NCBI GenBank assembly: GCA_964588505.1
Contig: CAZPPQ010000001.1
Span: forward strand, 1 to 58,715
Direction of reading: 5' to 3'
Length of the DNA: 58,715 nt
Origin: an uncultured Gammaproteobacteria bacterium
GTDB lineage: Bacteria > Patescibacteriota > Patescibacteriia > UBA9934 > GWF2-40-263
The notes below the pieces were generated by a model. The model was given only the letters and a program-made list of their open reading frames with translations, ran no database searches and was not told where the DNA came from. Shown one piece after another: positions 1,619-52,433 of this stretch; the first letter of the stretch is position 1; each line of letters begins with the position of its first letter. Both the position numbers and the translations under genes were made by a program.

Positions 1619-1640
1619 CCTAACTCCCTAACTCCCTAAA
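1619..1640. repeat. octamer array (cctaactc units) between permease and ATPase genes
   Basis: cctaactccctaactccctaaa read directly; 8-nt period with CTAA cores. Confidence 0.7.
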
Positions 1641-2401: not shown

Positions 2402-3305
2402 TTTCCATCATGAGATTAATGAATGAGTCGCGCGGGGGTTTGCCGCCGATATCATCGAGAATGACGAGGCGCAGACCATAATCATTCGCAAATGGTCGGA
2501 GCGTCTCGGTCGAGAATTGCGGCTCGTGGAAGAGTGAACGCGCGCCAGACGCTTTGACGGCCTTTGCGAGCGCCGTAAGATAAAGTGCGGACGGTTCGCG
2601 CCCAGCTGTCGGCAGATATGTTCCAGCTATCGTGAGTCCGTAGGCATCAACGAAATAATACCACGCATCGTGCAAAGTGATGAGGGTCCGGCCTTTTGCA
2701 GGCGCCAAAATCATTTGTATTTTTTCTTCGGCTATGGAAAGTTTTTCAAGATATGCGTCCGTATTTTTTTGAAATTGGTCCGCGCGAGCAGGGAACCGCG
2801 ATCTTAAATCGGCATTGATTGTCTGCACCATCCTCTTGGCGTTCTGCATCGTGAGCCAAAAGTGAGGATCAACAGGACCCTCTTCTTCTGCGCCTCTGTC
2901 TGTAAAAATGACTTGCGATTGGCGAAGTCGGATCCCTGTATCCAAAACAACTTCCTCTGCATTCGTATTTGCGATAATCGGTCGAATCCACTCGTCAATT
3001 CCATGTCCGATTGTATAGACAGCCTCGGCACGTTGCAATTCTTTGATACGGGAAGGCGGCGGTTCAAACATGTGAGGCTCGCTCCCTGGCGGGACGATAA
3101 GGACGACCTTGACTTCGTTGCCGGCCACTTCGCGCGCGAGATCGTAGACAGGAAAAATGGAAGCGGCTACAAGAGGTTTTTGAGAGAGTTGAAAAGACGA
3201 TTTTTGAAAAAAATCCGCAATAAAAAAAAGACCGATCGCGACAAACAGACAGACAGCAATAATAAAAATTTTTCGACTCACAATTTGATAGGACCTATTG
3301 GTCAT
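2373..3305 (-). CDS. metal ABC transporter substrate-binding protein (ZnuA/TroA-like)
   Basis: 310 aa with an N-terminal membrane anchor. Looks like the cluster-9 binding-protein family. First gene of the three-gene importer operon. Confidence 0.8.
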   Translation of the reverse strand: MTNRSYQIVSRKIFIIAVCLFVAIGLFFIADFFQKSSFQLSQKPLVAASIFPVYDLAREVAGNEVKVVLIVPPGSEPHMFEPPPSRIKELQRAEAVYTIGHGIDEWIRPIIANTNAEEVVLDTGIRLRQSQVIFTDRGAEEEGPVDPHFWLTMQNAKRMVQTINADLRSRFPARADQFQKNTDAYLEKLSIAEEKIQMILAPAKGRTLITLHDAWYYFVDAYGLTIAGTYLPTAGREPSALYLTALAKAVKASGARSLFHEPQFSTETLRPFANDYGLRLVILDDIGGKPPRDSFINLMMENAKAIADNP

Positions 3306-3326
3306 AGAAGATCTACAGGACCTATC
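3287..3326. repeat. direct repeat of aggacctat (family iii octamer units) over the binding-protein start codon
   Basis: gataggacctattggtcatagaagatctacaggacctatc. The first copy encodes N-terminal residues TNRSYQ. Confidence 0.6.
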
Positions 3327-3897: not shown

Positions 3898-3904
3898 TAC
3901 AGCA

Positions 3905-4065: not shown

Positions 4066-4163
4066 CATAGATAGTGCCGTATTTTTGAAAGTCCTGGAGC
4101 CTCACCCGCCCGAACAAACGAATTTCGCACTGTCGTCTGGTCGGGCGGGCGCCCAAAGCCCTT

Positions 4164-6806: not shown

Positions 6807-6871
6807 GGGCGTTAGGCTCTAGGCTTTAGGACATTAAAGTTTAAATCCTTAACTCCCTAAATCCCTAACGG
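6807..6871. repeat. inverted pair of octamer arrays (ggcgttag/ggctctag ... ctaactcc/ctaaatcc)
   Basis: gggcgttaggctctaggctttagg, 11-nt spacer, taaatccttaactccctaaatccctaacgg. Fills the alr to ftsQ-like intergenic gap. Confidence 0.8.
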
Positions 6872-6877
6872 CTACCT

Positions 6878-8998: not shown

Positions 8999-9142
8999 AA
9001 CAGTTAAACGACACGCCTAACGCCTAAAACGCGCCAGGACGATTTGATGGGTATGCTCGTACCTCTATTAGGCCCTATAGGATCTATGGGGCCATGGCAA
9101 CAGGGCGTACATCGTAGGGAGTGTTGGAAAATATCGGCTATC

Positions 9143-9424
9143 TTAAGCTCGATATCGAGCTTGCGTCGTATAAGATTTATTGTACGACTCAATGAAGACA
9201 TCCGCGAGACCGCTTCCCCCCACAAAAATATCGGTAAAATAAACAAGGAGAAGAATCGTGGCGCCAAGCAATGTAATGGCAAACCCAAGCATCACCAGCG
9301 CTTTGATTTCCTCGTCGTCGTTCGCCGCGCCAAGAATAAGGTTCGCGCTGACACCGAGAGCTACAACGATTGGCGCAAGCGCCATCGCCCACCCAAAAAT
9401 TTTAATGGCAAACTCTAACGTCAC
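9143..9424 (-). CDS. small two-TM membrane protein, function unknown
   Basis: Two hydrophobic helices (ALAPIVVALGV..., VMLGFAITLLGATILLLVYF). The track start at 9451 is a TTG inside a repeat unit; GTG 9424 or ATG 9385 are more plausible. A palindrome aagctcgatatcgagctt follows the stop. Confidence 0.45.
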   Translation of the reverse strand: MTLEFAIKIFGWAMALAPIVVALGVSANLILGAANDDEEIKALVMLGFAITLLGATILLLVYFTDIFVGGSGLADVFIESYNKSYTTQARYRA

Positions 9425-9426
9425 AT

Positions 9427-9465
9427 GTCCTCTATGTCTTATAGGGTCCAATACGACCTATAAAC
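9427..9465. repeat. family iii octamer units (gtcttata/gggtccaa/gacctata)
   Basis: gtcctctatgtcttatagggtccaatacgacctataaac read directly between two minus-strand genes. Confidence 0.55.
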
Positions 9466-12204: not shown

Positions 12205-12248
12205 GCTCTAGGGATTTAGGCTCTAGGGATTTAGGCTCTAGGCTTTAG
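12205..12248. repeat. octamer array, GGNNNTAG orientation (ggctctag/ggatttag x5)
   Basis: gctctagggatttaggctctagggatttaggctctaggctttag, immediately 3' of the GT26 gene. Confidence 0.85.
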
Positions 12249-12256: not shown

Positions 12257-13144
12257 TTAATTCCCGACCTCTGACTTCTCCTCTTTATGAAATACTTGTC
12301 GGAAAATTTCCGGGACCGCGCGACGAAACGCGCGCAAGAAGATTCGATGCTTCAGTGTACTCCAAACGACCGCGGCTGGAAAGACGAGGATGGCGTTCCA
12401 GATCCTACGAAATCGTTTTGGTTCTTGCGCTAAGCGCCACACCCACTCGAGTCCGGATCGGCTCATCCATGCCGGAGCACGGGCAATCGTTCCGCTTTGC
12501 ACGTCGAACGCGCCGCCGACCCCGATGCCGATGCGCAGTGATGGAAGTAATGGAGCAACGTGGCATAAAAAGAATTCCTGCTTTTTCTGTCCGAGCCCGA
12601 CGGCGAGCACATCCGGAGCTTCGTTTCGGAGTCGAGTCATGATACCTCCCCATACCCCCTTCTTGGCAGGAGGGGGCATTTCTTGCATTCCTCCCCTGCC
12701 AAGGGCAGGTAAGCAGGGGTCGCCTAACTCGACCACTCCCGGATCGAATCCAAACACGCGAAGCGACGGAAACTTGGTTTTCAAAAATACAGCTGCTTTT
12801 TCCGCGCTTCCTGGTAAGCCTCCGACAAGCCCGAGCGTCTTCCCTTTCTCTGTACAAAGTTTCGCGAGCAGAAAAAGCGTGTCCGTTCCTGTATGCCGAT
12901 GTTGAAGAAGGTTTGGCGTGAGCGCCGCAATGGCAAACCGCATTCCGACCCCGTCTGGAAGAGCCAGGTCGGCTTTATGTAACAATTCATAAAATTCTTC
13001 GTCTTCCCTTGCCTGCAGTAAAAACTCCGGATTCAAAGTTGTGATAAGATGGAACGAAGGCGAGGCAAGATCATCTGAAAGAATCTCTAAAAGTCCAGCG
13101 AGAGGGATATCATCAATTTTTACGCCAAAAATTTCGTGTTTCAT
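12257..13144 (-). CDS. WecB/TagA/CpsF-family (GT26) glycosyltransferase
   Basis: 295 aa. N-terminus FGVKIDDIPL and C-terminus GLEWVWRLAQEPKRFRR are typical of GT26. Contains an apparent ~30-aa insertion encoded by a palindromic stretch (12662-12704). Confidence 0.75.
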   Translation of the reverse strand: MKHEIFGVKIDDIPLAGLLEILSDDLASPSFHLITTLNPEFLLQAREDEEFYELLHKADLALPDGVGMRFAIAALTPNLLQHRHTGTDTLFLLAKLCTEKGKTLGLVGGLPGSAEKAAVFLKTKFPSLRVFGFDPGVVELGDPCLPALGRGGMQEMPPPAKKGVWGGIMTRLRNEAPDVLAVGLGQKKQEFFLCHVAPLLPSLRIGIGVGGAFDVQSGTIARAPAWMSRSGLEWVWRLAQEPKRFRRIWNAILVFPAAVVWSTLKHRIFLRAFRRAVPEIFRQVFHKEEKSEVGN

Positions 13145-13179
13145 AAATCCCTAAATCCCTAACTCCCTAGAGCCTTTAG
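13145..13179. repeat. octamer array, CTANNNCC orientation (inverted relative to 12205-12248)
   Basis: aaatccctaaatccctaactccctagagcctttag, immediately 5' of the GT26 gene. Confidence 0.85.
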
Positions 13180-13260: not shown

Positions 13261-13286
13261 GTGATAGGTGTGAGCTTATAGCTTAT
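13261..13286. repeat. octamer units gtgatagg/gcttatag flanking F2 copy A (left)
   Basis: gtgataggtgtgagcttatagcttat read directly. Confidence 0.6.
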
Positions 13287-13447
13287 GGGGCTGTCGCCGA
13301 ATGTGCTTTTGAAGCGAAATGGCTGAATTTCGAGACAGAATCGTTGAATAAATTTTGAGGTTTATCAGTAGATAAGCCGAAAAATTTTGAAACGATTATG
13401 ACCGAAATTCAGACATTACAGCCAAAATGACATTCGGCGACAGACCC
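13287..13447 (+). repeat. F2 long-hairpin (MITE-like) element, copy A, 161 nt
   Basis: Terminal inverted repeats ggggctgtcgccgaatgt / acattcggcgacagaccc. Internal pairings ctgaatttcg/cgaaattcag and aatcgtt/aacgatt. About 93% identical to the copy at 21912. Confidence 0.85.
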
Positions 13448-13472
13448 TTTATAGGAAAAAAAGGAGAATTTT

Positions 13473-16314: not shown

Positions 16315-17067
16315 ATGAGTGTGCGCTTGCTTGAAAAGGAGTGCTTCAAGGGCGCTCCGAACATCAAAAAGCGTATGATGGATCGCCGCGCGAACCGTAG
16401 CGAGCGCCGCCTTGCCAAGATGGCGCTCGCACAGGCCATTTCGGCCCGCATTGCCTTTCAAGGTTCAAAGCGGATGAAGCCGGAGCCACCGGTGTTCTAC
16501 GATCCTCACCTCGATATTTATTTTCAGTTCGATCCGAGTGTCGGGGACTTCATCGCGGTTCCGTGGCCGAAACCGGAAGGAGATATGCTGTTCCTTGCGA
16601 ACGAGCGGTTCGATGGGTTCGTCCATCCGATCAATACCAAAACAGTGGACGGAATGCAGGGCAATCGCATCAACACCATTCACCGCTGGCTGCGCACCTT
16701 GAACGGCAAATCGTGGATCGAGGTCTACTCAATTCTCAGATCTCGTTTCAACCACGGGACATATTTCCTGTGGTGCCGGAATGTCCGCGAATTCGGTCGC
16801 GAAGTCGAGGCCGCGGACAAGGACGATGAGTTCATGGAGTTCTACATCGAGGACGGCATCTTCCGCTGCCATCCGCGCGTGTCCATGAAACACATGGACA
16901 CGGTCATCGAGAAGCCGACAAAGCTCTCGGTAGCGAAGCGTCTGGAGGCAAAAGCGGCTCGTGAAGAGAAGTACAAGAAATCGTTTCGCGAGAAACGATT
17001 CATCATCTCGCACCGCAAGGCCAAGCGCCAAAAACAAGTACCTCTTCAAGAAGCCGTTGCCGACTAG
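16315..17067 (+). CDS. hypothetical protein (250 aa), Arg/Lys-rich termini, no recognised domain
   Basis: ATG at 16315 with AGGAGG ending 7 nt upstream, in frame with track ORF 16222-17067. Has its own promoter and a downstream hairpin. Sampled 60-nt lines are GC-richer than neighbouring genes. Confidence 0.6.
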   Translation: MSVRLLEKECFKGAPNIKKRMMDRRANRSERRLAKMALAQAISARIAFQGSKRMKPEPPVFYDPHLDIYFQFDPSVGDFIAVPWPKPEGDMLFLANERFDGFVHPINTKTVDGMQGNRINTIHRWLRTLNGKSWIEVYSILRSRFNHGTYFLWCRNVREFGREVEAADKDDEFMEFYIEDGIFRCHPRVSMKHMDTVIEKPTKLSVAKRLEAKAAREEKYKKSFREKRFIISHRKAKRQKQVPLQEAVAD

Positions 17068-18834: not shown

Positions 18835-19620
18835 ATGATTGTCTTTGCGGCTTTTACGCCACATTCTCCGCTTTTGATGCCAGCCATCGGGATAGCAAAG
18901 GAAAAACAACAGAAGAAAACTTCAGAGGCCATGCGCCTCCTCTCTTCGCGTTTGCGAAAAACAAAACCGGAAACGATTGTCGTTATTTCTTCCCACAGCT
19001 TCCAGCACAAGACGGCTTTTTCCATCAATCTGCACGACCGTTATATGACGGATCTTTCAAAATACGGAGACCTTGGCGCGCATAAAACATTCTTGCCGGA
19101 TGTACAGACGATTGACCAGGCCCAACGTTTTTTGCGAGGTCAGGATATACCGGTTACGCTGGATTCTGAAGAGACATTGGATTACAGCATTGCGGTCCCG
19201 CTTCTTCTGCTCACGGACAAACTGTCAGCGAAAATCATCCCGATCTCTTACAGTGGCCTCGGACCGAAAGAACATGCGGCCTTTGGCAATGCCCTTCGCG
19301 AGATCCTTTCCAGAAGTTCGAAACGTATCGCTCTGATTGCGACCGGGGATCTTTCCCACGCGCTCGAAAGTTCCGGACCGGCCGGATTCAAGCCGGAAGG
19401 AAAAAAATTTGATGATGCAGTCGCCGAAGCGATAAAACAGAAATCCCTCTCAAAGCTGCTTTCGCTCGACGAACAGATCGTGCGAGCATCATCGGAATGC
19501 GCCTACCTCCCCCTGCTCATTCTTTTCGGCGCTTTGGAAAAAATTCGTATGCGATCCGAGATTCTTTCTTACGAGACTCCATTCGGTGTAGGATATTTGG
19601 TCGCGGAATTTCATCTTTAG
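18835..19620 (+). CDS. class III extradiol dioxygenase subunit B / Memo-like family protein
   Basis: 261 aa. The N-terminus FAAFTPHSPLL and overall pattern resemble the LigB/Memo fold, from family-level recollection only. The stop TAG lies inside the first repeat unit. Confidence 0.5.
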   Translation: MIVFAAFTPHSPLLMPAIGIAKEKQQKKTSEAMRLLSSRLRKTKPETIVVISSHSFQHKTAFSINLHDRYMTDLSKYGDLGAHKTFLPDVQTIDQAQRFLRGQDIPVTLDSEETLDYSIAVPLLLLTDKLSAKIIPISYSGLGPKEHAAFGNALREILSRSSKRIALIATGDLSHALESSGPAGFKPEGKKFDDAVAEAIKQKSLSKLLSLDEQIVRASSECAYLPLLILFGALEKIRMRSEILSYETPFGVGYLVAEFHL

Positions 19621-19739
19621 GCGTTAGGGAGTTAGGGCGTTAGGAAGTTAAAGAAAATAAGAAGACCTAAATCCCTAGAGACTAAATCCCTAGAGCCTAG
19701 AGCCTAAATCCCTAGAGTCTAGAGCCTAACACCTAATCC
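19616..19739. repeat. largest inverted octamer-array pair in the window
   Basis: tttaggcgttagggagttagggcgttaggaagttaa, then a spacer, then cctaaatccctagagactaaatccctagagcctagagcctaaatccctagagtctagagcctaacacctaatcc. Fills the whole intergenic gap. Confidence 0.9.
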
Positions 19740-21429: not shown

Positions 21430-21912
21430 ATGGCCATTCTCCCGATTCTCAAAGAACCGAACGAAATACTACGACAGATCGCAAAGCCTGTTTCTCTTGA
21501 CGATCTCGCGAAACCCGAAATACAAAACGTATTGGATGATATGGTCCATACCATGCATGTCGCGAAAGGGATCGGGCTTGCGGCGCCGCAAGTCGGCATA
21601 TCAAAACGGCTGATTGTGGTTTTGATGGGCGAGAAGCCGCGGATTTTTATCAATCCGGAAATCATTTCTTCGGCTTTCCGCAAAGTGGAAAGCGAGGAAG
21701 GATGCCTCTCGGTCCCTGGCGTGTTCGGGATCGTCAAACGAACACGCGGTGTTGAAGTCAAAGCGCTGGATCGCAACGGAAAATGCGTCACGGTAAAAAC
21801 GAACGGATTGCCGGCGATCATTTTTCAGCACGAGATTGATCATCTGAACGGAACACTCTTTATCGATAAAATAGAACGGCTTACCGAACACCACGAAACA
21901 GAAACGTTATAG
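21430..21912 (+). CDS. def: peptide deformylase
   Basis: Motifs GIGLAAPQ, EEGCLSVPG and QHEIDHLNG. ATG 21430 (MAILPIL...) was chosen to avoid overlap with the upstream gene. Confidence 0.9.
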   Translation: MAILPILKEPNEILRQIAKPVSLDDLAKPEIQNVLDDMVHTMHVAKGIGLAAPQVGISKRLIVVLMGEKPRIFINPEIISSAFRKVESEEGCLSVPGVFGIVKRTRGVEVKALDRNGKCVTVKTNGLPAIIFQHEIDHLNGTLFIDKIERLTEHHETETL

Positions 21913-22073
21913 GGGTCTGTCGCCGAATGTGCTTTTGAAGCGAAACGGCTGAATTTCGAGATAGAATCGTTGAATAAATTTTGAAGTTTATCAGGAGATA
22001 AGCCTAAAAATTTTGAAGCGATTATAGCCGAAATTCAGACATGGCAGCCAAAACGACATTCGGCGACAGACCC
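21912..22073 (+). repeat. F2 long-hairpin element, copy B, 162 nt
   Basis: ggggtctgtcgccgaatgt...acattcggcgacagaccc, flanked by tata on both sides. Sits between def and fmt. Confidence 0.85.
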
Positions 22074-22098
22074 TATAGACCCTTTTATAAAATATCTT

Positions 22099-25306: not shown

Positions 25307-26400
25307 AAAAATTTTTTGAAGACTTCATGCTGGGACGTGCAGGAAAATTGAGTTCGAACGCGCTCCGACGCCTGTTGCGCGAGCGTCTCGCGCAACGGAC
25401 GATCCGATGCCAATCTGGCCATCGCGTCTGCCAGAGCCGGAATATCCCCGTCTGAAATCAAGAGACCAGTCTTCCCGTCCGCAATGGCTTCATCAACTCC
25501 CGGATGGCGCGTAGCGATTGATGGCACTCCGAAAGCCGCGGCCTCGAGATATACCAGTCCGAATCCCTCCCTGTCTTCCTGCTTACGGAGCGTCGGCATC
25601 ACGAAAACATCGCTTGAAACGTACGCGCGTTCGCGATCCGCGTCTGAAACTCCTGATTCCATGCGCACAATGTCAGAAAGACACAATTCCTCGATCCGCT
25701 TGCGGATCGCTCCAGCCATCGGGCCATCGCCGATAATGCGATAGCGGATGTCGCGCAGCAACCCGCGCTCACGCAATAATGCCAGAGCCTCGAGCACGCG
25801 CAGATGTCCTTTACGCTCCACGAGCCTTGAAACGGTCAGGAACCGGCATCCGCCATCCTGATGGCGCACAATCGGCGATTCCGGAATCATATTTGACAAG
25901 ACGCACGGGTAGCTTACGAAGACGCGCGCGACGCCGAATTGTTTTTTTAATTCTTCGGCAAGCGAGTGGGAATTCGTCACGATGGCACGCGCGCCGCGAA
26001 GCACGAGTCCTGTCAAAAATTGTTTCCATAATCCACACATCGCGAGCCGGATGTCCATCCCATGCACGATAATCACGTACGGCTTTCTCGTAAACCATCC
26101 CGCGATCCATGCTGCTGTGCCGAACGGAAGCACGTGGCTCACGACGATGGTCTTCATTTTTGCGGATTCGCGTATGAGAATCCAAACGCTTTTCAACCAG
26201 TTTGGCCAAAAAAATCCGAATGACAATGCTTCGCGGCGAATCGGATATTCCGCGTGCTGATCGAAAAAACGCGCTTGTGCATCCGGTTCCGCCACCACAA
26301 AGATACGGTCATAAAAACTCGTCGCGAACGCGTGAAGATATTTTGCGACTCCGCCTTGTCGCGGAGGAAAATCAGGCGTCAAGAGAAGGATGTCCGGCAT
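25303..26400 (-). CDS. family 4 (GT-B) glycosyltransferase
   Basis: C-terminal EGFGLVYLEAAAFGVPSIA (E-x7-E region); 365 aa. Confidence 0.8.
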   Translation of the reverse strand: MPDILLLTPDFPPRQGGVAKYLHAFATSFYDRIFVVAEPDAQARFFDQHAEYPIRREALSFGFFWPNWLKSVWILIRESAKMKTIVVSHVLPFGTAAWIAGWFTRKPYVIIVHGMDIRLAMCGLWKQFLTGLVLRGARAIVTNSHSLAEELKKQFGVARVFVSYPCVLSNMIPESPIVRHQDGGCRFLTVSRLVERKGHLRVLEALALLRERGLLRDIRYRIIGDGPMAGAIRKRIEELCLSDIVRMESGVSDADRERAYVSSDVFVMPTLRKQEDREGFGLVYLEAAAFGVPSIATRHPGVDEAIADGKTGLLISDGDIPALADAMARLASDRPLRETLAQQASERVRTQFSCTSQHEVFKKFL

Positions 26401-30907: not shown

Positions 30908-30924
30908 ATTACTATTCACGAGCC

Positions 30925-30945
30925 ATTAGGCGTTAGGCGTTAGCC
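30925..30945. repeat. octamer units ggcgttag x2 inside the ribosomal operon
   Basis: attaggcgttaggcgttagcc between rpsM and rpsK. Confidence 0.7.
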
Positions 30946-30985
30946 ATCGAATCGAGCTACATGCAAAAGGCTAAAGGCTGGGTCT

Positions 30986-31558: not shown

Positions 31559-31783
31559 TTAAAAACGATACACGATGCGCCCTTTTGTCAGATCATACGG
31601 GCTCATTTCCACTTTCACTTCATCCCCTGGGAGAATCCGAATATGATTCATCCGCATCTTTCCGGAAAGATGGCCCAAAATGACCTGATCGTTTTCTAAG
31701 GTAATCTTGAATTGAGCCGCCGGCAGAAGCTCATCCACCGTTCCCCGCATCTCGATAAACTGCTTTGTCCCTTGGTCACTCAT
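31559..31783 (-). CDS. infA: translation initiation factor IF-1
   Basis: [12 protein letters not shown]...[39 protein letters not shown] 31783 gives the usual ~74 aa; ATG 31804 is also possible. Confidence 0.9.
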
Positions 31784-31902: not shown

Positions 31903-32002
31903 TTAGGTGATAGCTTAGAGGTGATAGCTTATAAAAATTGGCTCATAAAAGCGATAAAAAATCTCCTATAAACTATAAGCTATAAGCTAAAACCTATAAG
32001 CC
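31903..32002. repeat. inverted octamer arrays (ggtgatag/gcttatag ... cctataag/ctataagc)
   Basis: ttaggtgatagcttagaggtgatagcttataa, then a spacer, then ctcctataaactataagctataagctaaaacctataagcc. The last unit supplies the alaS stop codon (minus-strand gcttatag). Confidence 0.8.
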
Positions 32003-33862
32003 CCCCTCGACGACGGCCTTAATTCTCCGGATTCCGGAAGCGACAGCCTCCTCTTTTACGATCTTGAAATTTTCCAGCTCTCCTGTGCGCTCCACATGCG
32101 GACCGCCGCACACTTCCTTGCTAAAATAATCGCCGGTCTTTTCGTCTCCGATAAAATAGACTTTGATCTGATCTCCGAGTGTCGCGTATGTATCCTCAAA
32201 CACACCGATCGCTCCGCGTTGTTTCGCTTCGACAACGCTCATGATTTCAAAATGCACCGGCAGATTTTTTTTGATGGCGTCGTTCACGATCCCTTCGATT
32301 TTTTTTAATTGCTCCGGTGTCACCTTTTGCGGATGAGAAAAGTCAAAACGCAGACGCTCGCTCGTGATGTTTGATCCTTTTTGAAACACGTGATCGCCGA
32401 GCACAAGACGGAGCGCTTGATCCAAAAGATGCGTCGCTGTATGCAATCGTGTCGTTTCCTCCGAACGGTCAGCGAGCCCGCCGGTGAATTTCTGTTCCGC
32501 TCCGGCGCGCGAAAGTTGCTGATGCTTTTTGAACTCCGCGCCAAATGTTTCGCGGTCTACATCCTGACCGCGATCTTTCGCGAGCTCCTCGGTTAGCTCC
32601 AGCGGAAATCCGTAAGTTGAATACAAAATAAACGCGTCTTCTCCGGAAATCGCCGAACCTTTCAAAAACATTTTCTCGAACTCGCGCAAACCTTTTTCCA
32701 AAGTTTTTCCGAATTTCTTTTCCTCGCGCGCGAGTTCATCAAAAATACGACTTTTGTTTTTCGCAAGCTCCGGATAGACATCTTTATACCTTTCAACAAC
32801 GACCTCGGCGATTGCAACCATAAACGATCCGGCTATTCCAAGCTGGCGGCCATGGCGCACCGCGCGTCGAATCAAGCGGCGCAAGACATATCCCTGCTCA
32901 ACATTCGACGGCGCAACTCCGCGCGCGTCCCCAAGAACAAACACGGCCGCGCGCGTATGGTCCGCGATAATGCGTGTGGAACGGTTAGAGGACATAAAAG
33001 ACCTATAGGACATATCGGAACGTTTTTCGATCGCTTCAAGCATCGGCGCGAACGCGTCCGTTTCAAACACGGTTGCCGCGCTGTTCACTACCGCGGTGAT
33101 GCGCTCGAGTCCCATACCTGTATCCACGTTGCGGTGAGTAAGAGGAACATAATCTCCGTCCGCAGTCTTGTTATACTGCATAAACACATCATTCCAAATC
33201 TCAATAAACCGGCCGCAGTCGCAAGCCGGATGACACGCAACGCCAAACGCCGCATCGTGCGGCCGTCCGGAGTCATAATACATTTCCGTATCTGGACCGC
33301 ATGGGCCCGTGAGTCCAGCCGGACCCCACCAATTCTGCTTTCGGCCATAAGGATAGATGCGCGCGCCGCCCGCAATGTCAGGAGACTCAGCATCGGCAAC
33401 TTCTGCATTGATTCCGGAACTTTGAAACGCCTTTTTCCACATTTCGATCGCTTCATCGTCGCGAAAAATCGCACCATCCCCCCGGAACACACTCACATAT
33501 AATCGTTTCGGATCCAACCCGAGCCACTTTTTTCCCGTAAGAAACTCGAAACTCCACACGATCGCTTCTTCTTTGAAATAGTCACCGAGCGACCAGTTTC
33601 CAAGCATTTCAAAAAAAGTCAGGTGCCGATTGTCTCCGACTTCATCAATGTCGCCGGTGCGAATGCATTTTTGCACATTTGCGATCCGTGGGCCGCCAGG
33701 ATGCGTTTGTCCTAAAAGATACGGCACGAGCGGATGCATTCCGGAGGTCGTGAATAACACGGTCGGATCATTTTCCGGAATCAACGAGGCGGAAGGAATG
33801 ATCGTGTGTTCTTTTTGTTTGAAAAATTCGAGAAATTTTGCGCGGATGTCGGCAGTGGTCAT
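31994..33862 (-). CDS. alaS: alanine--tRNA ligase, short form (622 aa) ending after the editing domain
   Basis: Class II catalytic core and the editing-domain motif HTATHLL...H. No C-Ala domain. Confidence 0.9.
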   Translation of the reverse strand: MTTADIRAKFLEFFKQKEHTIIPSASLIPENDPTVLFTTSGMHPLVPYLLGQTHPGGPRIANVQKCIRTGDIDEVGDNRHLTFFEMLGNWSLGDYFKEEAIVWSFEFLTGKKWLGLDPKRLYVSVFRGDGAIFRDDEAIEMWKKAFQSSGINAEVADAESPDIAGGARIYPYGRKQNWWGPAGLTGPCGPDTEMYYDSGRPHDAAFGVACHPACDCGRFIEIWNDVFMQYNKTADGDYVPLTHRNVDTGMGLERITAVVNSAATVFETDAFAPMLEAIEKRSDMSYRSFMSSNRSTRIIADHTRAAVFVLGDARGVAPSNVEQGYVLRRLIRRAVRHGRQLGIAGSFMVAIAEVVVERYKDVYPELAKNKSRIFDELAREEKKFGKTLEKGLREFEKMFLKGSAISGEDAFILYSTYGFPLELTEELAKDRGQDVDRETFGAEFKKHQQLSRAGAEQKFTGGLADRSEETTRLHTATHLLDQALRLVLGDHVFQKGSNITSERLRFDFSHPQKVTPEQLKKIEGIVNDAIKKNLPVHFEIMSVVEAKQRGAIGVFEDTYATLGDQIKVYFIGDEKTGDYFSKEVCGGPHVERTGELENFKIVKEEAVASGIRRIKAVVEGGL

Positions 33863-33872
33863 ACTGGGTTCT

Positions 33873-33897
33873 TGGGCGTTAGGCGTTAGGCTCTAGG
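33873..33897. repeat. octamer units ggcgttag/ggctctag upstream of alaS
   Basis: gggcgttaggcgttaggctctagga read directly. Confidence 0.75.
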
Positions 33898-33946
33898 ATT
33901 TTGTTTCGAATGAAGTGTACAAAAAATCAAGGCGGAGGTCTAGAGG

Positions 33947-33990
33947 AAAAAAAACGGCGGCATTTCCTGCTGTCACAGGCCATGCCGTCG
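33947..33990 (-). terminator. rho-independent terminator (minus strand)
   Basis: On the minus strand: cgacggcat, loop, atgccgccg, followed by eight T residues. Confidence 0.7.
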
Positions 33991-34164
33991 AAAAAATTTT
34001 CTATGATTTTCCACGCAAGCCCAAACCCGCTGCCGCGCATCGGTAATACCGAAACATCTGCGACTGGCTTTTCGGACGAAACACTCTATGAAACCGACTT
34101 CTTTCTTAAAGCCGTTTGCGCGTCTCTACGAGTTATTTATGAGAGACCCTCTGTCCCAAACAGC
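33947..34164 (-). ncRNA. candidate sRNA (~215 nt) between murJ and alaS
   Basis: A consensus-like promoter (34171-34199) and a strong terminator (33947-33990) enclose a stretch with several local hairpins and no ORF with an RBS. Confidence 0.4.
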
Positions 34165-34170
34165 TGGGAG

Positions 34171-34199
34171 AAATTATCAAAAAACAACTATTTTGTCAA
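34171..34199 (-). promoter_or_regulatory. sigma70-type promoter with extended -35 TTGACAAAAT
   Basis: Minus strand: TTGACA, 17-nt spacer, TAATTT. The -35 ends 2 nt from the F1 copy B boundary. Confidence 0.5.
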
Positions 34200-34201
34200 T
34201 A

Positions 34202-34362
34202 GGGATCTCTGCAAAAGTCCATTTCAGGATGAAAGCGAGGAATGTTTTCCGGATGCGAGGAAGGATTCCGGAAATGATATCGCCATATCATTGAGGAATC
34301 CTGACGACGCAGCCGGGAAACATAACCGCTTTCAGGCCGGAAGCGACTTTTGCAGAGGTCCC
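34202..34362 (+). repeat. F1 long-hairpin element, copy B, 161 nt
   Basis: Identical to copy A except one A-to-G change, which turns an A:T stem pair into G:T (G:U in RNA). Ends 11 nt from the murJ stop. Confidence 0.85.
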
Positions 34363-34373
34363 AATATCAAAAA

Positions 34374-35987
34374 TCAGAAGTCGGAATCTGTCGGGAGCGC
34401 TTCTTTTGGACAATAGTGTTTGAAGAATCTACGGCGCACGCCGATCAGAAGATTATGCAACTCTTCGCTCCGGAACAGAAATGCGACGACCCCATACACC
34501 AAAAGTCCGAATCCTCCGGCAACCGCCGCTTGCAAGAACACACCCCAAAATGTATTGAGCGAAAGAACTTGCACGGTAAACGGTTTCAAAGACTGGGCCG
34601 CGAGCGCGGCGCACAAGGCGGCGACGGAAATGGAAATAAGTGATCGGATGATGTGAGCCTCGTCAAGCGATCTGATGCGTAGGCGCAATGGAATCCAGAG
34701 CGTCGCCAAGTTCAGAAACGAGGCGAGAGAAAACGCCATCGCAAGCCCTTTCACGCCGAACCACTGCGAAAAATACCAGGCCGAAATAATGCCGACAGTT
34801 GCGGAAATCGCGCCTGACACGAGCGGCGTGACCGTATTTCGCATAGCGAAAAACGCGCGCGCCAGTACATAGACAAGGCTCTGCGCGGCCAAGCTCAATA
34901 AAAACCAGGCAAGAATATCCATCGTCTGATACGTCTCGCTCCACCCGAACGTTCCGGCCCCGACGACGAGCCGCACAGCCTGCACGCGCAGGACAAGAAG
35001 CAACATCATCATTGGAACCGTCAAAAACAGCACCCCACGCACGGTTTGAGAAAAAATCAAAACGAATCGCTTTATATCCCCTGCCCCGAACGCTTCGGCA
35101 AAAGACGGAAAAACCGCGATTGCATACGAGACACCGATAATCCCCACCGCAAAAAATTGGATGTTGTAGGCGAATTGAAAAACCGTGACGGATCCGGCCG
35201 TAAACAGTGAGGCCATGACCGTAAATAAAAGAAATTGAACTTGGGAAACGGCGAGCGAAAGCGTACGCGGACCCATGGTTTTCAGAATCTCGCGGCTCTC
35301 GGAATCAAACGGACGGAAACGGAGCGCATAGCGATATCCAAGAAGATGCGACCCAAACCACTGGATCAACATATGAAGAAACGCGCCGAGCACGACGCCC
35401 CACGCAAGAGCCAAGGGGCCGAATATCGGGACAAAAAAGACCGCGCCAAAAATAATGCCGAGATTGTAAAAAATCGGAGCGAGAGAAGCGAGAAAAAAGC
35501 GTTTAGACCCTTGAAGAATGCTTCCGAAGATGGAGGATCCAGCAAGCAAAAATTGTGCGAACAACATCATGCGTGTGAATCCGACCACGAGCGTGTGCTT
35601 TTCGCCCGAAAATCCCGGAGCGATCATCCAACCGACGGAATCCGCGAAGAAAAAAACAACAAGCGAAAGTCCGGCCATGGCCGCGAGCACGAGGTGTAGG
35701 ATGTTATTCGCCAGGTGCCACGCGCGCTCTTTTTCTCCGGAAGAAATATGCCTCGTGAAAAGCGGGATAAAACTCGCGGACACGGCGCCGACGACGAGCA
35801 GATTGAATAAAAGATCCGGAACTTTGAATGCCGCATAGTACGCGTCAAGCACATCTCCGGCTCCGAATGTTCCAGCCAGAATGCGGTCGCGGACCAGGCC
35901 AAAAAGGCGGCTTACAAACGAAAGAACGCCGACAATGGCCGCGGCGCTCGCAACGGTTTTTGATTCAACATTCAAGAAACGAAACAT
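34374..35987 (-). CDS. murJ: lipid II flippase MurJ
   Basis: 537 aa, 14-TM MOP-family pattern. The N-terminus VGVLSFVSRLFGLVRDRILAGTFGAG is characteristic of MurJ/MviN. Confidence 0.9.
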   Translation of the reverse strand: MFRFLNVESKTVASAAAIVGVLSFVSRLFGLVRDRILAGTFGAGDVLDAYYAAFKVPDLLFNLLVVGAVSASFIPLFTRHISSGEKERAWHLANNILHLVLAAMAGLSLVVFFFADSVGWMIAPGFSGEKHTLVVGFTRMMLFAQFLLAGSSIFGSILQGSKRFFLASLAPIFYNLGIIFGAVFFVPIFGPLALAWGVVLGAFLHMLIQWFGSHLLGYRYALRFRPFDSESREILKTMGPRTLSLAVSQVQFLLFTVMASLFTAGSVTVFQFAYNIQFFAVGIIGVSYAIAVFPSFAEAFGAGDIKRFVLIFSQTVRGVLFLTVPMMMLLLVLRVQAVRLVVGAGTFGWSETYQTMDILAWFLLSLAAQSLVYVLARAFFAMRNTVTPLVSGAISATVGIISAWYFSQWFGVKGLAMAFSLASFLNLATLWIPLRLRIRSLDEAHIIRSLISISVAALCAALAAQSLKPFTVQVLSLNTFWGVFLQAAVAGGFGLLVYGVVAFLFRSEELHNLLIGVRRRFFKHYCPKEALPTDSDF

Positions 35988-44309: not shown

Positions 44310-44377
44310 GTGCCGTTATCCTAGCGGATTTGTTGGATGATGTCGAGAAAACGACTCTTCAAATACCATGTTCTAAA

Positions 44378-44419
44378 ATATGTTATAAGTCCTATTGGTC
44401 CAATCGGTCCCATATGACC
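44378..44419. repeat. family iii octamer units (ataagtcc/tattggtc/caatcggt/cccatatg)
   Basis: atatgttataagtcctattggtccaatcggtcccatatgacc read directly in the intergenic gap. Confidence 0.55.
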
Positions 44420-44465
44420 AAAATAAAAAATCCCCGCGGAAAACGCGAGGATGTAGAGAAAAAGG

Positions 44466-47461: not shown

Positions 47462-47573
47462 AATAAAAGAAGTTAAGAGATAAAAGCTTGATTCCAGTGT
47501 AACATACGCAAAGAACGCGCCCGAGAGTGCTTGTCAACTGCGTGCGAAAACAGTATCCTCTCACTTTCCAACA

Positions 47574-47606
47574 CTCTAAAGCCTAACTCCCTAAATCCCT
47601 AGAGCC
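47574..47606. repeat. octamer array ctaaagcc/taactccc/taaatccc/tagagcc upstream of dus
   Basis: ctctaaagcctaactccctaaatccctagagcc read directly. Confidence 0.8.
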
Positions 47607-47629
47607 TTCATCGCCTTTAACGCCTTCCT

Positions 47630-48706
47630 GTGTTCTCTTGGAAATCCGCCGAAAAACCGATCGTTGCGCTTTCGCCAATGGCTGATATGACAGATTCGGC
47701 GTTTTGTCGCGTGGTGAAAGAAGTCCTTCTTGAAGTCGACAACCAACAAAGCCCCTCGACTCCGGCCGGCTCTGCCGGCCTTCGCTCGGGGAATAAAAAT
47801 CCTACAAGCTACCAGCTACAAGCTACAAGCTTCCCGTTGATTTTTCGCGAAATGATCTCGTCCGAAGCGGTCGTGCGCAAAAATAAAAAGACGCTCGCAA
47901 TGGCCGAACTCCATCCAAGCGAGCGACCAATCATTCAACAAATTTTCGGGGGGGATCCGGAAGTGATGGCCAAAGCCGCTCGGGAAATCGAAGAGACATT
48001 CTATCTAGACGGCATTGACATCAATATGGGATGTCCTGTGTATAAAATCGTCTCAAACTTCAATGGCGCGGCGCTGATGAAAGAGCCGGCGCGCGCGGCG
48101 CAGATTGTGCGCGCGGTGAAAGCCGTTGTCTCTGTTCCTGTCTCGGTGAAAATCCGACTCGGATGGAACGATCCGAACGAGTGCGTCGCGTTCGCAAAAG
48201 TGTTGGAAGCCTCTGGAGCGGATGCGATCGAGGTGCACGCGCGCACAAAAATGCAAGGGTATTCCGGAAAGGCAAACTGGGCGCAAGTTGCAAAAATAAA
48301 ACGGGTAGTTTCGATTCCTGTGCTTGTGAACGGCGACATTGTTTCAGGCGCGACCGCGCTTGAGGCGCTTGAAAAGAGTGGGGCGGACGGCGTTTTAATC
48401 GGCCGTGGGGCTTTGGGAAATCCGTGGATTTTTTTGGAGATAAAACAAGCGATAAAAGATATGTCCGATAGGTCTTATAAGACCTATCGGACATATCAAC
48501 CGCTTGCAGAACGTCTCCATGTTATCCGCCGCCATTTGGAATTGCATTGCGAACAATACGGCGAGCGCGGCGTCGTGACATTCCGCAAACATCTCGGCTG
48601 GTACTTCCGCGGCCTGCCGCATGCAAAAGAAATCCGCGAACGATTGTTCGCGGCAAAGACAAGAGAGGAATTGATCGCAGCCCTCGACCGAGGCGACGAC
48701 CCTTGA
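47630..48706 (+). CDS. tRNA-dihydrouridine synthase
   Basis: GTG start. Dus motifs ALSPMADMTDSAF, DINMGCP, VKIRLGW and GRGALGNPWIF. Carries two repeat-derived in-frame insertions. Confidence 0.9.
   Translation: MFSWKSAEKPIVALSPMADMTDSAFCRVVKEVLLEVDNQQSPSTPAGSAGLRSGNKNPTSYQLQATSFPLIFREMISSEAVVRKNKKTLAMAELHPSERPIIQQIFGGDPEVMAKAAREIEETFYLDGIDINMGCPVYKIVSNFNGAALMKEPARAAQIVRAVKAVVSVPVSVKIRLGWNDPNECVAFAKVLEASGADAIEVHARTKMQGYSGKANWAQVAKIKRVVSIPVLVNGDIVSGATALEALEKSGADGVLIGRGALGNPWIFLEIKQAIKDMSDRSYKTYRTYQPLAERLHVIRRHLELHCEQYGERGVVTFRKHLGWYFRGLPHAKEIRERLFAAKTREELIAALDRGDDP
47752..47832 (+). repeat. in-CDS insertion: GC-rich hairpin + aataaaaat + heptamer array (ctacaag x4)
   Basis: cccctcgactccggccggctctgccggccttcgctcggggaataaaaatcctacaagctaccagctacaagctacaagctt encodes ...SPSTPAGSAGLRSGNKNPTSYQLQATSF..., which is absent from the usual Dus N-terminal region. 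Confidence 0.65.
48458..48497. repeat. perfect 40-bp palindrome of five 8-nt units inside the dus CDS
   Basis: gatatgtc cgataggt cttataag acctatcg gacatatc. I verified that it equals its own reverse complement. Encodes DMSDRSYKTYRTY. Confidence 0.95.
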
Positions 48707-52353: not shown

Positions 52354-52433
52354 GGCTTATAGCTTATAGGAATTAGCTTATAGGAATTGATAATTAACCG
52401 TTTTCTATCCTATAAGCTATAACCTATAAGCTT
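52354..52433. repeat. inverted octamer arrays (gcttatag/gaattagc ... cctataag/ctataacc)
   Basis: ggcttatagcttataggaattagcttataggaatt, 18-nt spacer, atcctataagctataacctataagctt. Fills the gap between the two genes. Confidence 0.85.

What the first reader, a model, noticed from the sequence alone, without database searches (positions are those of the whole stretch)
48458..48497. Perfect 40-bp palindrome built from five octamers, in frame inside tRNA-dihydrouridine synthase
The sequence gatatgtccgataggtcttataagacctatcggacatatc equals its own reverse complement. It is translated as DMSDRSYKTYRTY between the conserved GNPWIF motif and the C-terminal helical domain of Dus. Related units (taggacct, tatcggac, tataagac) recur in several places. 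They occur at the start of the metal-binding-protein gene (3287-3326, encoding TNRSYQ) and inside alaS (about 32990-33022, encoding DMSYRSF). They also occur in intergenic DNA at 9064, 9427, 44378, 58293 and 58677. Tolerated in-frame palindromic insertions in essential genes parallel the Rickettsia palindromic elements, but this unit structure is different.
Basis: seen in the sequence. Interest (0 to 1): 0.68.

Follow-up and report, generated by a model that had tools for sequence, protein, structure and literature searches.

The report
In-frame 40-bp palindrome in Dus
A perfect 40-base palindrome sits in frame in a flexible linker of a tRNA-modifying enzyme gene of an uncultured groundwater bacterium (Candidate Phyla Radiation); it is one copy of a small family of dispersed repeats with a 9-base period, and it shows how short repeats and hairpin-forming replication errors rewrite protein loops in these tiny genomes.

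Summary
The palindrome at 48458-48497 is real. It is perfect, it is the only palindrome longer than 18 bp in the window, and it is identical in four other assemblies. It lies in frame in a DusB-type gene of a Candidatus Uhrbacteria-like (CPR) genome. It is not built from octamers: its period is 9 nt (unit about TATNGGWCC), so any copy keeps the reading frame.

Seven further arrays of 27-45 nt from this family lie in the window, where about 0.1 would be expected by chance. Some share more than 30 nt and similar ends, so they are copies of one another.

In Dus the segment is a true lineage-specific gain. The inter-domain linker is 20 aa in 66 of 74 related Dus genes and 27 aa here, and it is modelled as a low-confidence coil. 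A sister lineage carries a different repeat at the same site, and a second relative's contig ends there inside a third repeat. In AlaS the "insertion" is refuted, because orthologues have the same length; it is a replaced patch.

Only the Dus copy forms a hairpin. Perfect hairpins are over-represented in Uhrbacteria Dus loops, and one has conserved codons as one arm. I therefore favour replication template switching as the source of the perfect symmetry. The parallel with Rickettsia palindromic elements is functional only. Moderately interesting; a new variant of a known kind.

The parts
48458..48497 (.). Perfect 40-bp palindrome made of 4.4 nonamer units in two inverted half-arrays. It encodes DMSDRSYKTYRTY in the Dus linker.
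   Evidence: Folds as DNA at -18.4 kcal/mol (z -9.5). Identical in L001-L004.
47630..48706 (+). DusB-type tRNA-dihydrouridine synthase ORF that hosts the palindrome. All invariant family residues are kept.
   Evidence: The model matches 1vhn and 6ei9 with target-normalised TM-scores of 0.87 and 0.86.
48446..48506 (+). Extended mRNA hairpin. CAAGCG (48446-48451) pairs with CGCTTG (48501-48506) around the 18-bp perfect stem.
   Evidence: -37.6 kcal/mol, z -10. The outer 6-bp stem could be chance (my estimate p about 0.02).
47798..47831 (+). Second repeat-derived in-frame insertion in the same gene: a CTACAAG heptamer array (4.3 units, TSYQLQATS) in the hypervariable N-terminal loop.
   Evidence: It shares 21 identical nt with the sister species' AlaS-IF1 spacer. 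pLDDT is below 50 for residues 48-65.
3287..3326 (.). 40-nt quasi-palindromic family copy with the same GATA...TATC ends (30/40 ungapped identity to the Dus copy). It straddles the annotated znuA start codon.
   Evidence: (12/18 symmetric positions, centre exactly mid-element).
32977..33016 (-). Family copy inside alaS (DMSYRSFMSSN). It is 20/23 identical to the Dus arm and starts with the same GATATGTCC in the same frame. It is a replacement patch, not an insertion.
44375..44420 (.). Intergenic family copy (4 units) between a terminator-like hairpin and the lepA start.
9058..9097 (.). Intergenic family copy (about 3 units).
9422..9465 (.). Family copy (4.4 units) at the 5' end of a possible small membrane-protein ORF (9143-9451, minus strand). 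It is about 87% identical over 31 nt to the copy at 58290.
58288..58327 (.). Family copy that supplies the last four codons (YRSY) and the stop codon of the ORF 58306-58620 (weak 23S_rRNA_IVP match).
58664..58703 (.). Weaker family copy (about 3 units) upstream of the same ORF.
   Evidence: score 17/24.

Best explanation
**What it is.** The 40-bp palindrome is one copy of a lineage-restricted family of very short dispersed repeats. Each copy is 27-45 bp long and holds 3.4-4.4 units of a 9-bp module. The module is about TAT-N-GGWCC, that is, a TATA-like tetramer plus a GGWCC-like pentamer, each of which is itself symmetric.

**Why it is tolerated in a gene.**
- The period is three codons, so any copy preserves the reading frame.
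- The consensus unit is free of stop codons in four of six frames.
- Copies therefore survive in non-coding DNA, at gene ends and in permissive protein loops.
- In Dus the copy occupies the linker between the TIM barrel and the helical domain. It replaces about 6 ancestral residues with 13 (net +7 aa), and the model predicts a flexible coil there.

**How the perfect symmetry arose (inferred).** It is not a property of the family. I infer that a roughly 20-nt half-array, like the one now found in alaS, was copied in reverse complement by intramolecular template switching (snap-back) during replication. That mechanism produces a perfect inverted repeat in one event.

**What it does (inferred).** It is most likely neutral or nearly neutral at the protein level. 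Its one predictable side effect is a very stable hairpin in the dus mRNA.

**Shown:** the anatomy, the dispersal, the lineage-specific gain, the coil prediction and the excess of coding hairpins in relatives.

**Inferred:** the template-switch step, the neutrality, and how family copies reach new sites.
For: **Period and family**
- The period is 9 nt.
- The scan finds 6-7 family loci in the window against 0.1-0.6 in shuffles. It finds 1 hit in 1.1 Mb of non-CPR control loci.
- Pairwise local scores between copies are 10-22, against a null of 7.7 +/- 2.5.
- Sub-groups share more than 30 nt and their ends. The Dus and alaS copies both begin with GATATGTCC in the same codon phase. The 9427 and 58290 copies share the end GACCTATAAAC. 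The Dus and znuA copies are both 40 nt with GATA...TATC ends.
- The same family occurs in two other Uhrbacteria Dus genes, in the other variable loop (L085, L107).

**Gain in Dus**
- The linker is 20 aa in 66 of 74 related Dus ORFs and 27 aa here.
- The segment is modelled as coil with pLDDT of about 60, between helices 267-278 and 292-310.
- The sister L088 has 61 aa at this site from another repeat. The contig of L090 ends there inside a third repeat.

**Template switching**
- Only the Dus copy folds (z -9.5). The other seven have z values between -2.5 and +1.1.
- Perfect hairpins with stems of at least 10 bp occur 7 times in 73 Uhrbacteria Dus ORFs (0.53 expected). They occur once in 71 non-CPR Dus ORFs (0.50 expected).
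- In L142, one arm of a 15-bp stem is the conserved FCRTVR codons and the other arm forms the variable loop. That gives the polarity expected of a template switch.
- In L126, a +3 aa gain at this same linker is an 11-bp-stem perfect hairpin.
- The window holds 4 perfect hairpins with stems of at least 10 bp, against about 0.1-0.4 expected.
- The mechanism itself is established. Template switching creates perfect stems in one event (PMC8794818), and quasipalindrome template-switch mutations are known in E. coli (PMC7202029).
Against: - No close outgroup with the ancestral linker was found. The nearest relatives carry other repeats at the site, and the metagenome scan found neither the same species nor intermediate forms. 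The polarity of a template switch therefore cannot be shown for this locus.
- The znuA copy has the same 40-nt length, the same ends and a symmetry centre exactly at its middle (12/18 positions). That also fits a discrete palindromic element that inserts as a unit and then decays.
- How family copies reach new sites is unknown. No transposase, terminal inverted repeats or target-site duplications were seen.
- The hairpin excess rests on small counts (7 against 1).
- Neutrality and the mRNA effect are untested.
Confidence: 0.55

Rival explanations
1. The 40-bp palindrome is a discrete, very small mobile palindromic element, similar in kind to REP or RPE elements. It inserted as a unit into the Dus linker, and the Dus copy is simply the youngest, undecayed copy. 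The other copies are older, decayed or partial.
For: - The znuA copy is also 40 nt, has the same GATA...TATC ends and a central symmetry point, and is 30/40 identical to the Dus copy.
- Copies fall in a narrow size range of 3.4-4.4 units.
- Termini recur (NATNTGTCC).
- Three related lineages carry three different repeats at the same linker site. The N-terminal loop collects hairpin repeats in many Uhrbacteria.
Against: - There is no second perfect or near-perfect copy in 58.7 kb. The next best copy is 75% identical.
- Five of the eight copies are no more symmetric than random sequence.
- The alaS and L107 copies replace sequence with a net change of only +1 or +2 aa, rather than inserting 40 nt.
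- No terminal inverted repeats or target-site duplications were found. No transposase or RAYT-like gene appears in the window or in the Pfam tables for L001 and L086.
Confidence: 0.25
2. The hairpin is a selected functional element inside the dus coding region. It could be an RNA structure such as an RNase III site, a translational pause or a stability element. It could also be a dyad-symmetric protein-binding site.
For: - The predicted stem is exceptionally stable: RNA -37.6 kcal/mol, z -10.
- It is strictly identical in all assemblies and in two variant strains.
- Inverted pairs of other short arrays in intergenic regions show concerted or compensatory changes between the sister species.
Against: - The assemblies are 99.9% identical overall, so identity here says nothing about selection.
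- Relatives lack the element, or have unrelated sequence at the site.
- There is no Rfam match.
- A 40-bp dyad is much longer than typical operators (established knowledge).
- The other family copies do not fold.
Confidence: 0.08
3. The nonamer family derives from collagen-like (Gly-Pro-Ile)n coding repeats. Short stretches of a GGW-CCT-ATN array elsewhere in the genome, or in a phage, would have been copied ectopically into other loci.
For: - The consensus unit GGWCCTATN is exactly a Gly-Pro-Ile collagen triplet.
- Perfect arrays of at least 3 units occur in more than 120 viral contigs, and a checked example translates as a GPIGPIGPQ collagen-like ORF.
- L085 and L107 read their Dus copies as GPIGPI and PIGPIG.
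Against: - No collagen-like ORF occurs in the window or in about 0.6 Mb of related loci.
- The Dus, alaS, znuA and 58306-58620 copies are read in the SYR/YRT frames, not as G-P-I.
- The units are very degenerate: about 1 in 30 matches TATNGGWCC exactly.
- The resemblance may follow simply from GGNCC encoding Gly-Pro.
Confidence: 0.07
4. The palindrome is an assembly artefact or a chance occurrence.
For: Palindromes and repeats can cause misassembly. The contig of L090 breaks inside the same linker.
Against: - The 40-mer is identical in the window and in four other assemblies from different samples and assemblers.
- The ORF is intact and in frame.
- The chance expectation is about 5e-8.
Confidence: 0.02

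Closest known systems
Rickettsia palindromic elements (RPEs)
   Same: Both are dispersed repeats found inside unrelated housekeeping genes in frame, tolerated at permissive and probably surface positions, in a small genome (PMC10969869).
   Different: RPEs are about 100-150 bp, form several families that each encode a conserved peptide, and are restricted to Rickettsia. The elements here are 27-45 bp, built from 9-bp units, read in different frames and mostly not palindromic. One copy (alaS) replaces sequence instead of inserting.
Template-switch (quasipalindrome-associated) mutations that create perfect hairpins
   Same: A single replication event copies neighbouring sequence in reverse complement and yields a perfect stem (PMC8794818, PMC7202029, PMC8604942). 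The L142 Dus loop shows exactly this pattern, and the Dus palindrome here has the expected product.
   Different: For this locus the ancestral arm cannot be identified. The arms are themselves members of a dispersed repeat family, which simple local template switching does not explain.
Coding palindromes in Nematomorpha mitochondrial genes
   Same: Both are perfect inverted repeats embedded in frame in functional protein-coding genes (PMC6649704).
   Different: Those reach up to 284 bp, are numerous in each genome, and both arms encode conserved protein regions. Here there is one 40-bp case, in a non-conserved linker.
REP / REPIN elements mobilised by RAYT transposases
   Same: Size of 20-40 bp, dispersal, partial dyad symmetry and frequent intergenic location (PMC3733652).
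   Different: There is no GTAG or CGTC head, most copies do not form a hairpin, some copies are intragenic, and no RAYT gene was seen in the window.
Short tandem repeat arrays (cyanobacterial STRR heptamers; Borg tandem repeats)
   Same: Both are short units repeated in tandem, dispersed over many loci. Units whose length is divisible by three are tolerated in ORFs, where they create disordered segments (PMC9879509). The window's 7/8-nt CCTA-type arrays resemble STRRs in form (own knowledge for STRRs).
   Different: Borg repeats are near-perfect, locally generated and differ between loci. Here the units are degenerate and the same roughly 30-40-nt segments recur at different loci.
Collagen-like Gly-X-Y triplet repeats
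   Same: The consensus nonamer GGWCCTATN equals a Gly-Pro-Ile triplet, and perfect arrays in viral contigs are collagen-like ORFs.
   Different: The copies here have at most 4.4 units, are mostly read in other frames or not at all, and have no collagen-like gene nearby.

Membership tests
Rickettsia palindromic elements (RPE) | Element of about 100-150 bp belonging to one of the described RPE families, in Rickettsia | tested here: not met
   The copies are 27-45 bp. The organism is an Uhrbacteria-like CPR bacterium. The size and taxon of RPEs are taken from PMC10969869.
Rickettsia palindromic elements (RPE) | In-frame insertion into an otherwise conserved ORF at a structurally tolerated position | tested here: met
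   Dus gains 7 aa net in a linker that is 20 aa in 66 of 74 relatives. The segment is coil with pLDDT of about 60. This is not met for alaS.
Rickettsia palindromic elements (RPE) | Family-wide palindromic (hairpin) structure and a conserved encoded peptide | tested here: not met
   Only 1 of 8 copies folds significantly. The copies are read as DMSDRSY, GPIGPI or YRSY*, or lie in non-coding DNA.
REP/REPIN (RAYT-associated) | Conserved GTAG or CGTC head followed by an imperfect palindrome | tested here: not met
   The ends are GATA / NATNTGTCC. Five of the eight copies are no more symmetric than random sequence.
REP/REPIN (RAYT-associated) | A cognate RAYT (Y1 transposase) gene in the genome | not testable with these tools
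   None appears among the ORFs and Pfam tables that cover the window. The rest of the genome is not available.
MITE | Terminal inverted repeats, target-site duplication and a size of about 50-500 bp | tested here: not met
   The alignment with flanks shows no target-site duplication or terminal inverted repeats, and the size is below 50 bp. Two genuine MITE-like repeats of 166 and 168 nt do exist elsewhere in the window.
Template-switch (quasipalindrome) mutation product | Perfect reverse-complement arms adjacent to each other | tested here: met
   20 + 20 nt, with no mismatches.
Template-switch (quasipalindrome) mutation product | One arm ancestral and the other new relative to an outgroup, arising as one clustered change | tested here: inconclusive
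   No outgroup keeps the ancestral linker. The pattern is met in the related gene of L142, where one arm is the conserved FCRTVR codons.
Collagen-like triple-helix repeat | A long Gly-X-Y run read in the Gly frame within an ORF | tested here: not met
   There are at most 4.4 units. Dus reads the SYR/YRT frames. No run of (G-X-Y) with 5 or more repeats occurs in the window, and the only run of 6 or more in the related loci is a non-collagen 6-triplet stretch in L006.
tRNA-dihydrouridine synthase B (host gene) | Dus TIM barrel plus helical domain with conserved catalytic motifs | tested here: met
   Pfam PF01207 is recorded for the identical protein P0001. E-values are 3e-48 to 1vhn and 1e-40 to E. 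coli DusB. All invariant columns are kept. Target-normalised TM-scores are 0.87 and 0.86.

The most novel reading that the evidence does not exclude
Some Uhrbacteria (CPR) may carry a so far undescribed class of ultra-short (about 30-40 bp), nonamer-structured dispersed elements with defined ends. These would spread by short-patch copying (template switching or ectopic conversion) rather than by transposition. They can overwrite as well as extend coding sequence in frame. Together with an elevated rate of hairpin-forming template switches, they would be a major source of new protein loops in these reduced genomes.
Probability: 0.22. Interest if true: 0.7.

Novelty: new variant of a known kind. 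Interest (0 to 1): 0.42.

Why it matters
CPR bacteria have tiny, densely coding genomes, and many of their proteins carry unexplained insertions. This locus gives a concrete, sequence-level example of where such insertions come from. Short dispersed repeats and template-switch hairpins land again and again in the same two permissive loops of one conserved enzyme.

The evidence includes related lineages that carry different repeats at one site. It also includes one copy (alaS) that overwrites sequence without changing its length. If this is general, it bears on three things:
- how insertions in CPR proteins should be interpreted, that is, as repeat debris rather than functional domains;
- assembly breaks in CPR genomes reconstructed from metagenomes;
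- whether reduced repair and exonuclease gene sets raise template-switch mutagenesis.

For the Dus enzyme itself the consequence is probably small.

Tried and rejected
- **Octamer model.** Rejected by autocorrelation: 0.12 at a shift of 8 against 0.71 at a shift of 9.
- **Hairpin as a family property.** Rejected: seven of the eight copies do not fold significantly.
- **Link to a GGWCC (AvaII-type) restriction site.** GGACC and GGTCC are neither avoided nor enriched: 30 and 31 observed against 36 and 40 expected.
- **Known RNA family.** The only Rfam match at gathering threshold in the window is a tRNA elsewhere.
- **Arrays as the ends of a cassette carrying a 23S-IVP-like gene.** The second pair of arrays (9058/9427) flanks an unrelated ORF with no Pfam match.
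- **Exact-pattern census of the family in public collections.** The units are too degenerate: no window copy matches even two consensus units. The 3-unit consensus instead retrieves viral collagen-like genes. The Dus/alaS arm pattern has no viral hit.
- **Search for intermediate or ancestral states of the linker.**
  - The metagenome scan returned no same-species locus, and the only sister it returned was one already in hand.
  - The protein search missed the sister Dus. I reached it only through the neighbouring beta-CASP gene.
- **Copy-number polymorphism of the arrays among the near-identical assemblies.** None was found.
- **Collagen-like genes in the window and related loci.** None was found.
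Full report
**1. Observation**

The sequence at 48458-48497 is GATATGTCCGATAGGTCTTATAAGACCTATCGGACATATC. It equals its own reverse complement and cannot be extended. It is the only perfect palindrome longer than 18 bp in the 58,715-bp window. Chance would give about 5e-8 such palindromes.

It lies in frame in ORF 47630-48706 (+) and encodes DMSDRSYKTYRTY. The ORF is a DusB-type tRNA-dihydrouridine synthase:
- E = 3e-48 to 1vhn and 1e-40 to E. coli DusB 6ei9;
- PF01207 is recorded for the identical protein P0001;
- all invariant residues of a 36-sequence alignment are kept.

The nearest named homologues are Candidatus Uhrbacteria / Patescibacteria, so the organism is a CPR bacterium.

The exact 40-mer is present in four other public assemblies from different groundwater samples and assemblers (L001-L004). 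Two slightly different strains keep the peptide (P0121, P0122). These assemblies are at least 99.9% identical to the window. An assembly chimera is therefore very unlikely, although reads could not be inspected.

**2. Anatomy: nonamers, not octamers**

Self-identity of the 40-mer is 0.71 at a shift of 9 and 0.12 at a shift of 8. Read in phase, it is GATATGTCC GATAGGTCT TATAAGACC TATCGGACA TATC. That makes 4.4 units of about TAT-N-GGWCC, with two GTC-type units followed by two GAC-type units.

A TATA-like tetramer and a GGWCC-like pentamer are each symmetric. Any run of such units is therefore a quasi-palindrome, and a period of three codons preserves the reading frame. The consensus unit has a stop codon in only one frame per strand.

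**3. A dispersed family**

- A 3-unit consensus scan (at least 18 of 24 informative positions) finds 6 loci in the window against 0.1 in shuffles. At a threshold of 17 it finds 7 against 0.6.
- The same scan gives 1 hit in 1.1 Mb of non-CPR control loci and none in seven CPR loci from reference genomes.
- Pairwise local alignment scores between copies are 10-22, against a null of 7.7 +/- 2.5.

Sub-groups share much more than the unit:
- Dus and alaS are 20/23 identical over the arm, and both start with GATATGTCC in the same codon phase (DMS...).
- Dus and znuA are both 40 nt with GATA...TATC ends (30/40 ungapped, 32/42 with the two flanking bases) and have a symmetry centre exactly in the middle.
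- The 9427 and 58290 copies are about 87% identical over 31 nt and share the end GACCTATAAAC.

The copies are therefore related by copying of segments of about 30-40 nt. They are not just independent local expansions.

Their positions are as follows:

| Copy | Position relative to genes |
|---|---|
| 9058, 44375, 58668 | intergenic |
| 3287 | straddles the annotated znuA start codon; a GTG start lies downstream |
| 9427 | 5' end of a possible small membrane-protein ORF |
| 58290 | provides YRSY and the stop codon of ORF 58306-58620 |
| Dus, alaS | internal to the genes |

**4. Is it an insertion?**

*Dus: yes.* I delimited the stretch from GNPW to the ER of the first helix of the helical domain in related Dus ORFs. 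It is 20 aa in 66 of the 74 ORFs where it could be delimited, 27 aa in the window, 61 aa in a sister lineage and 23 aa in L126. The palindrome replaces about six ancestral residues (consensus GKTPEP) with thirteen.

An AlphaFold2 model has mean pLDDT 85 and matches 1vhn and 6ei9 with target-normalised TM-scores of 0.87 and 0.86. It places residues 279-291 in a coil between helices 267-278 and 292-310. The mean pLDDT for residues 281-290 is 60.

Through the neighbouring beta-CASP gene I recovered the Dus genes of two closer relatives.
- L088/L089 have, at the same linker position, an unrelated insertion of about 41 aa. It contains the repeat AACCTCCCCTTAACCCCTCCTTGGCAGGAGGGGA. That repeat also sits in their N-terminal loop.
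- The contig of L090 ends at the same position, inside a third repeat (CGTCATTGCGAGGAGCCGCAGGCGACG).

Homology among the three breaks within a few codons of the same point.

*alaS: no.* Thirty-eight orthologues, including sisters at 80% identity, have the same length there: SDMSYRSFMSSNRS against SGKTYGSDETTDRS, which is +1 aa relative to the sister. At the DNA level it is a roughly 40-nt patch of low identity inside a 77%-identical alignment.

The same holds for a family copy in the Dus N-terminal loop of L107. It replaces about 36 nt with 42 nt relative to L142, its relative at 83% identity.

**5. Other genomes**

In about 470 kb of Uhrbacteria-type Dus loci, the family was found only twice. 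Both copies lie in the Dus N-terminal loop: L085 (TACAGGTCCTATCGGACCTATTGAACC, read as PTGPIGPIEP) and L107 (read as SPMSPIGPIGL). These two genes are separated by relatives without the array. That N-terminal loop ranges from 10 to 65 aa and often contains recognisable hairpin repeats.

Comparison with a sister species is possible over window positions 22-38.5 kb, where the two are collinear at about 75% nucleotide identity. It shows that short-unit arrays are gained, inherited and homogenised:
- The S13-S11 spacer is 77 nt in the window and 3 nt in the sister.
- The window has 25 extra nt at the SpoU-GT2 junction.
- An orthologous array in the AlaS-IF1 spacer differs at the same position in every unit (CTTATAG against CTTGTAG), also in its inverted partner. 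The window has one extra unit there.

**6. Why is this copy a perfect palindrome?**

Palindromy is not a property of the family. As single-stranded DNA, the Dus copy folds at -18.4 kcal/mol (z -9.5), whereas the other seven have z values between -2.5 and +1.1. In a symmetry count, znuA and 44375 reach 12/18 (the 99th percentile of random windows), and the rest are at background.

Perfect inverted repeats are, however, over-represented in this clade's coding DNA:
- The window has four with stems of at least 10 bp and loops of at most 6 nt, against about 0.1-0.4 expected.
- There are seven in 73 distinct Uhrbacteria Dus ORFs (0.53 expected) and one in 71 non-CPR Dus ORFs (0.50 expected). Most of the seven lie in the two variable loops.
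- In L142, a 15-bp stem has the conserved FCRTVR codons as one arm and the variable loop (APFDK) as the other. A second 9-bp stem follows. This is the polarity expected of replication template switching.
- In L126, the +3 aa gain in the same linker is an 11-bp-stem hairpin.

Template switching is known to create perfect stems in one step and to "correct" quasi-palindromes (PMC8794818, PMC7202029, PMC8604942). I therefore infer that a half-array of about 20 nt, like the alaS patch, was reverse-complement-copied in place. This step is inferred, not shown, because no outgroup retains the ancestral linker.

The main rival is that a 40-bp palindromic element inserted as a unit and that the Dus copy is simply young. 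The znuA copy's identical length, ends and centre support this. The absence of any second near-perfect copy, and the replacement-type copies, argue against it.

**7. Function**

Nothing indicates a dedicated function.
- There is no Rfam match at the site.
- No mobile-element or defence genes lie next to it.
- Relatives have unrelated sequence there.

The predictable consequence is a very stable mRNA hairpin: -37.6 kcal/mol, z -10, with an outer CAAGCG/CGCTTG stem that may be chance. Whether it affects translation or decay is untested.

**8. Comparison with known systems**

- **RPEs.** The locus works like RPEs in that repeats are tolerated in frame in conserved genes (PMC10969869). It fails RPE membership on size, taxon, family-wide hairpin and conserved peptide.
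- **REP/REPIN.** It lacks the GTAG/CGTC head and the hairpin of REPs (PMC3733652).
- **MITEs.** It lacks terminal inverted repeats and target-site duplications.
- **Coding palindromes.** As a perfect coding palindrome it resembles those of Nematomorpha mitochondria (PMC6649704), but on a much smaller scale and in a non-conserved segment.
- **Collagen-like repeats.** The consensus nonamer GGWCCTATN equals a Gly-Pro-Ile collagen triplet. Perfect arrays in more than 120 viral contigs are collagen-like ORFs. No collagen-like gene was found in the window or in related loci, and most copies here use other frames. I treat this as a possible origin of the motif, or a coincidence.
- **Literature.** Full-text searches found no description of such elements in CPR or Patescibacteria.

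**9. Verdict**

The feature is real and not due to chance. It is wrong about the octamers and about alaS. I classify it as a new variant of a known kind (small dispersed repeats and template-switch hairpins that remodel protein loops), documented here for an Uhrbacteria lineage. Interest is moderate.

Noticed in passing
window 47798-47831: A second in-frame repeat insertion lies in the same Dus gene. It is a CTACAAG heptamer array (4.3 units, TSYQLQATS) in the hypervariable N-terminal loop. It shares 21 identical nt (TACAAGCTACCAGCTACAAGC) with an intergenic array in the sister species' AlaS-IF1 spacer.
   Followed up: partly
window 1619-1639, 6807-6880, 12205-12248, 13144-13175, 19620-19735, 30926-30943, 33874-33898, 47568-47627, 52355-52432: About 15 arrays of 7/8-nt units containing CCTA/TAGG (CCTAAATC, CCTAACTC, CCTAGAG, TTAGGCG, CTATAAG) occur in the window, and almost all are intergenic. 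They often form inverted pairs that fold at -23 to -36 kcal/mol, and often abut start codons with the C-rich strand in mRNA sense. The units resemble telomere-type repeats (TTAGGG / TTTAGGG). Their function is unknown.
   Followed up: partly
window 31905-32001 versus L086 7771-7860: The AlaS-IF1 spacer array is orthologous in the two sister species. Every unit is CTTATAG in the window and CTTGTAG in the sister, and the same change occurs in the inverted partner array. The window also has one extra 7-nt unit. This indicates concerted or compensatory evolution of a hairpin-forming array pair.
   Followed up: partly
window 30909-30985 and 33864-34391, versus L086: The window lineage has a 77-nt spacer between the S13 and S11 genes where the sister has 3 nt. 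It has a 528-nt spacer between MurJ and AlaS where the sister has 52 nt. The extra DNA consists of short-unit arrays and a 166-nt repeat.
   Followed up: yes
window 3904-4069, 34201-34366, 716-800: A 166-nt repeat with internal inverted repeats is present in two 99%-identical copies, plus a partial inverted copy. It looks like a MITE.
   Followed up: no
window 13284-13451 and 21910-22077: A 168-nt repeat (92% identity between the copies) is bounded by 25-nt terminal inverted repeats (GGGTCTGTCGCCGAATGTGCTTTTG). It looks like a second MITE family.
   Followed up: no
window 49-296: A 12-nt tandem repeat (AGGCTGTCCCCG, 20.7 copies, with a 24-nt super-period) lies at the very start of the contig. 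It is possibly a repetitive coding region cut off by the contig end.
   Followed up: no
L088 988-2208 (sister Dus), L090 1-60: The sister Dus carries the same GC-rich hairpin repeat (AACCTCCCCTTAACCCCTCCTTGGCAGGAGGGGA, peptide PPLNPSLAGG) in both the N-terminal loop and the linker. The contig of L090 stops in the linker inside a CGTCATTGCGAGGAGCCGCAGGCGACG repeat. Related repeats, read as IARSEATKQS...ARND, fill the N-terminal loops of other Uhrbacteria Dus genes (L119, L132, L157).
   Followed up: partly
L142, Dus codons for FCRTVRSLAPFDKLRQLVV: The N-terminal loop consists of two successive perfect hairpins with 15-bp and 9-bp stems. One arm of the first is the conserved FCRTVR coding sequence. 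This is a clear footprint of serial template switching that created protein sequence.
   Followed up: yes
window 16878-16902, 25374-25396, 31655-31672: Further perfect inverted repeats lie inside ORFs. Two have 10-bp stems. The third is an 18-bp palindrome (CATCTTTCCGGAAAGATG) in the IF-1 gene.
   Followed up: no
window 46829 versus L001 9141-9151: One assembly (ERZ28564302) has an extra 11 nt (CCGCGTCCACG). This splits the beta-CASP/MBL RNase gene into two ORFs. It is either a population variant or an assembly error.
   Followed up: no
L175-L254 (IMG/VR contigs): Perfect (GGWCCTATN)n arrays are common in viral contigs. A checked example (L180) encodes a collagen-like GPIGPIGPQ repeat, so the consensus nonamer equals a Gly-Pro-Ile triplet.
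   Followed up: partly
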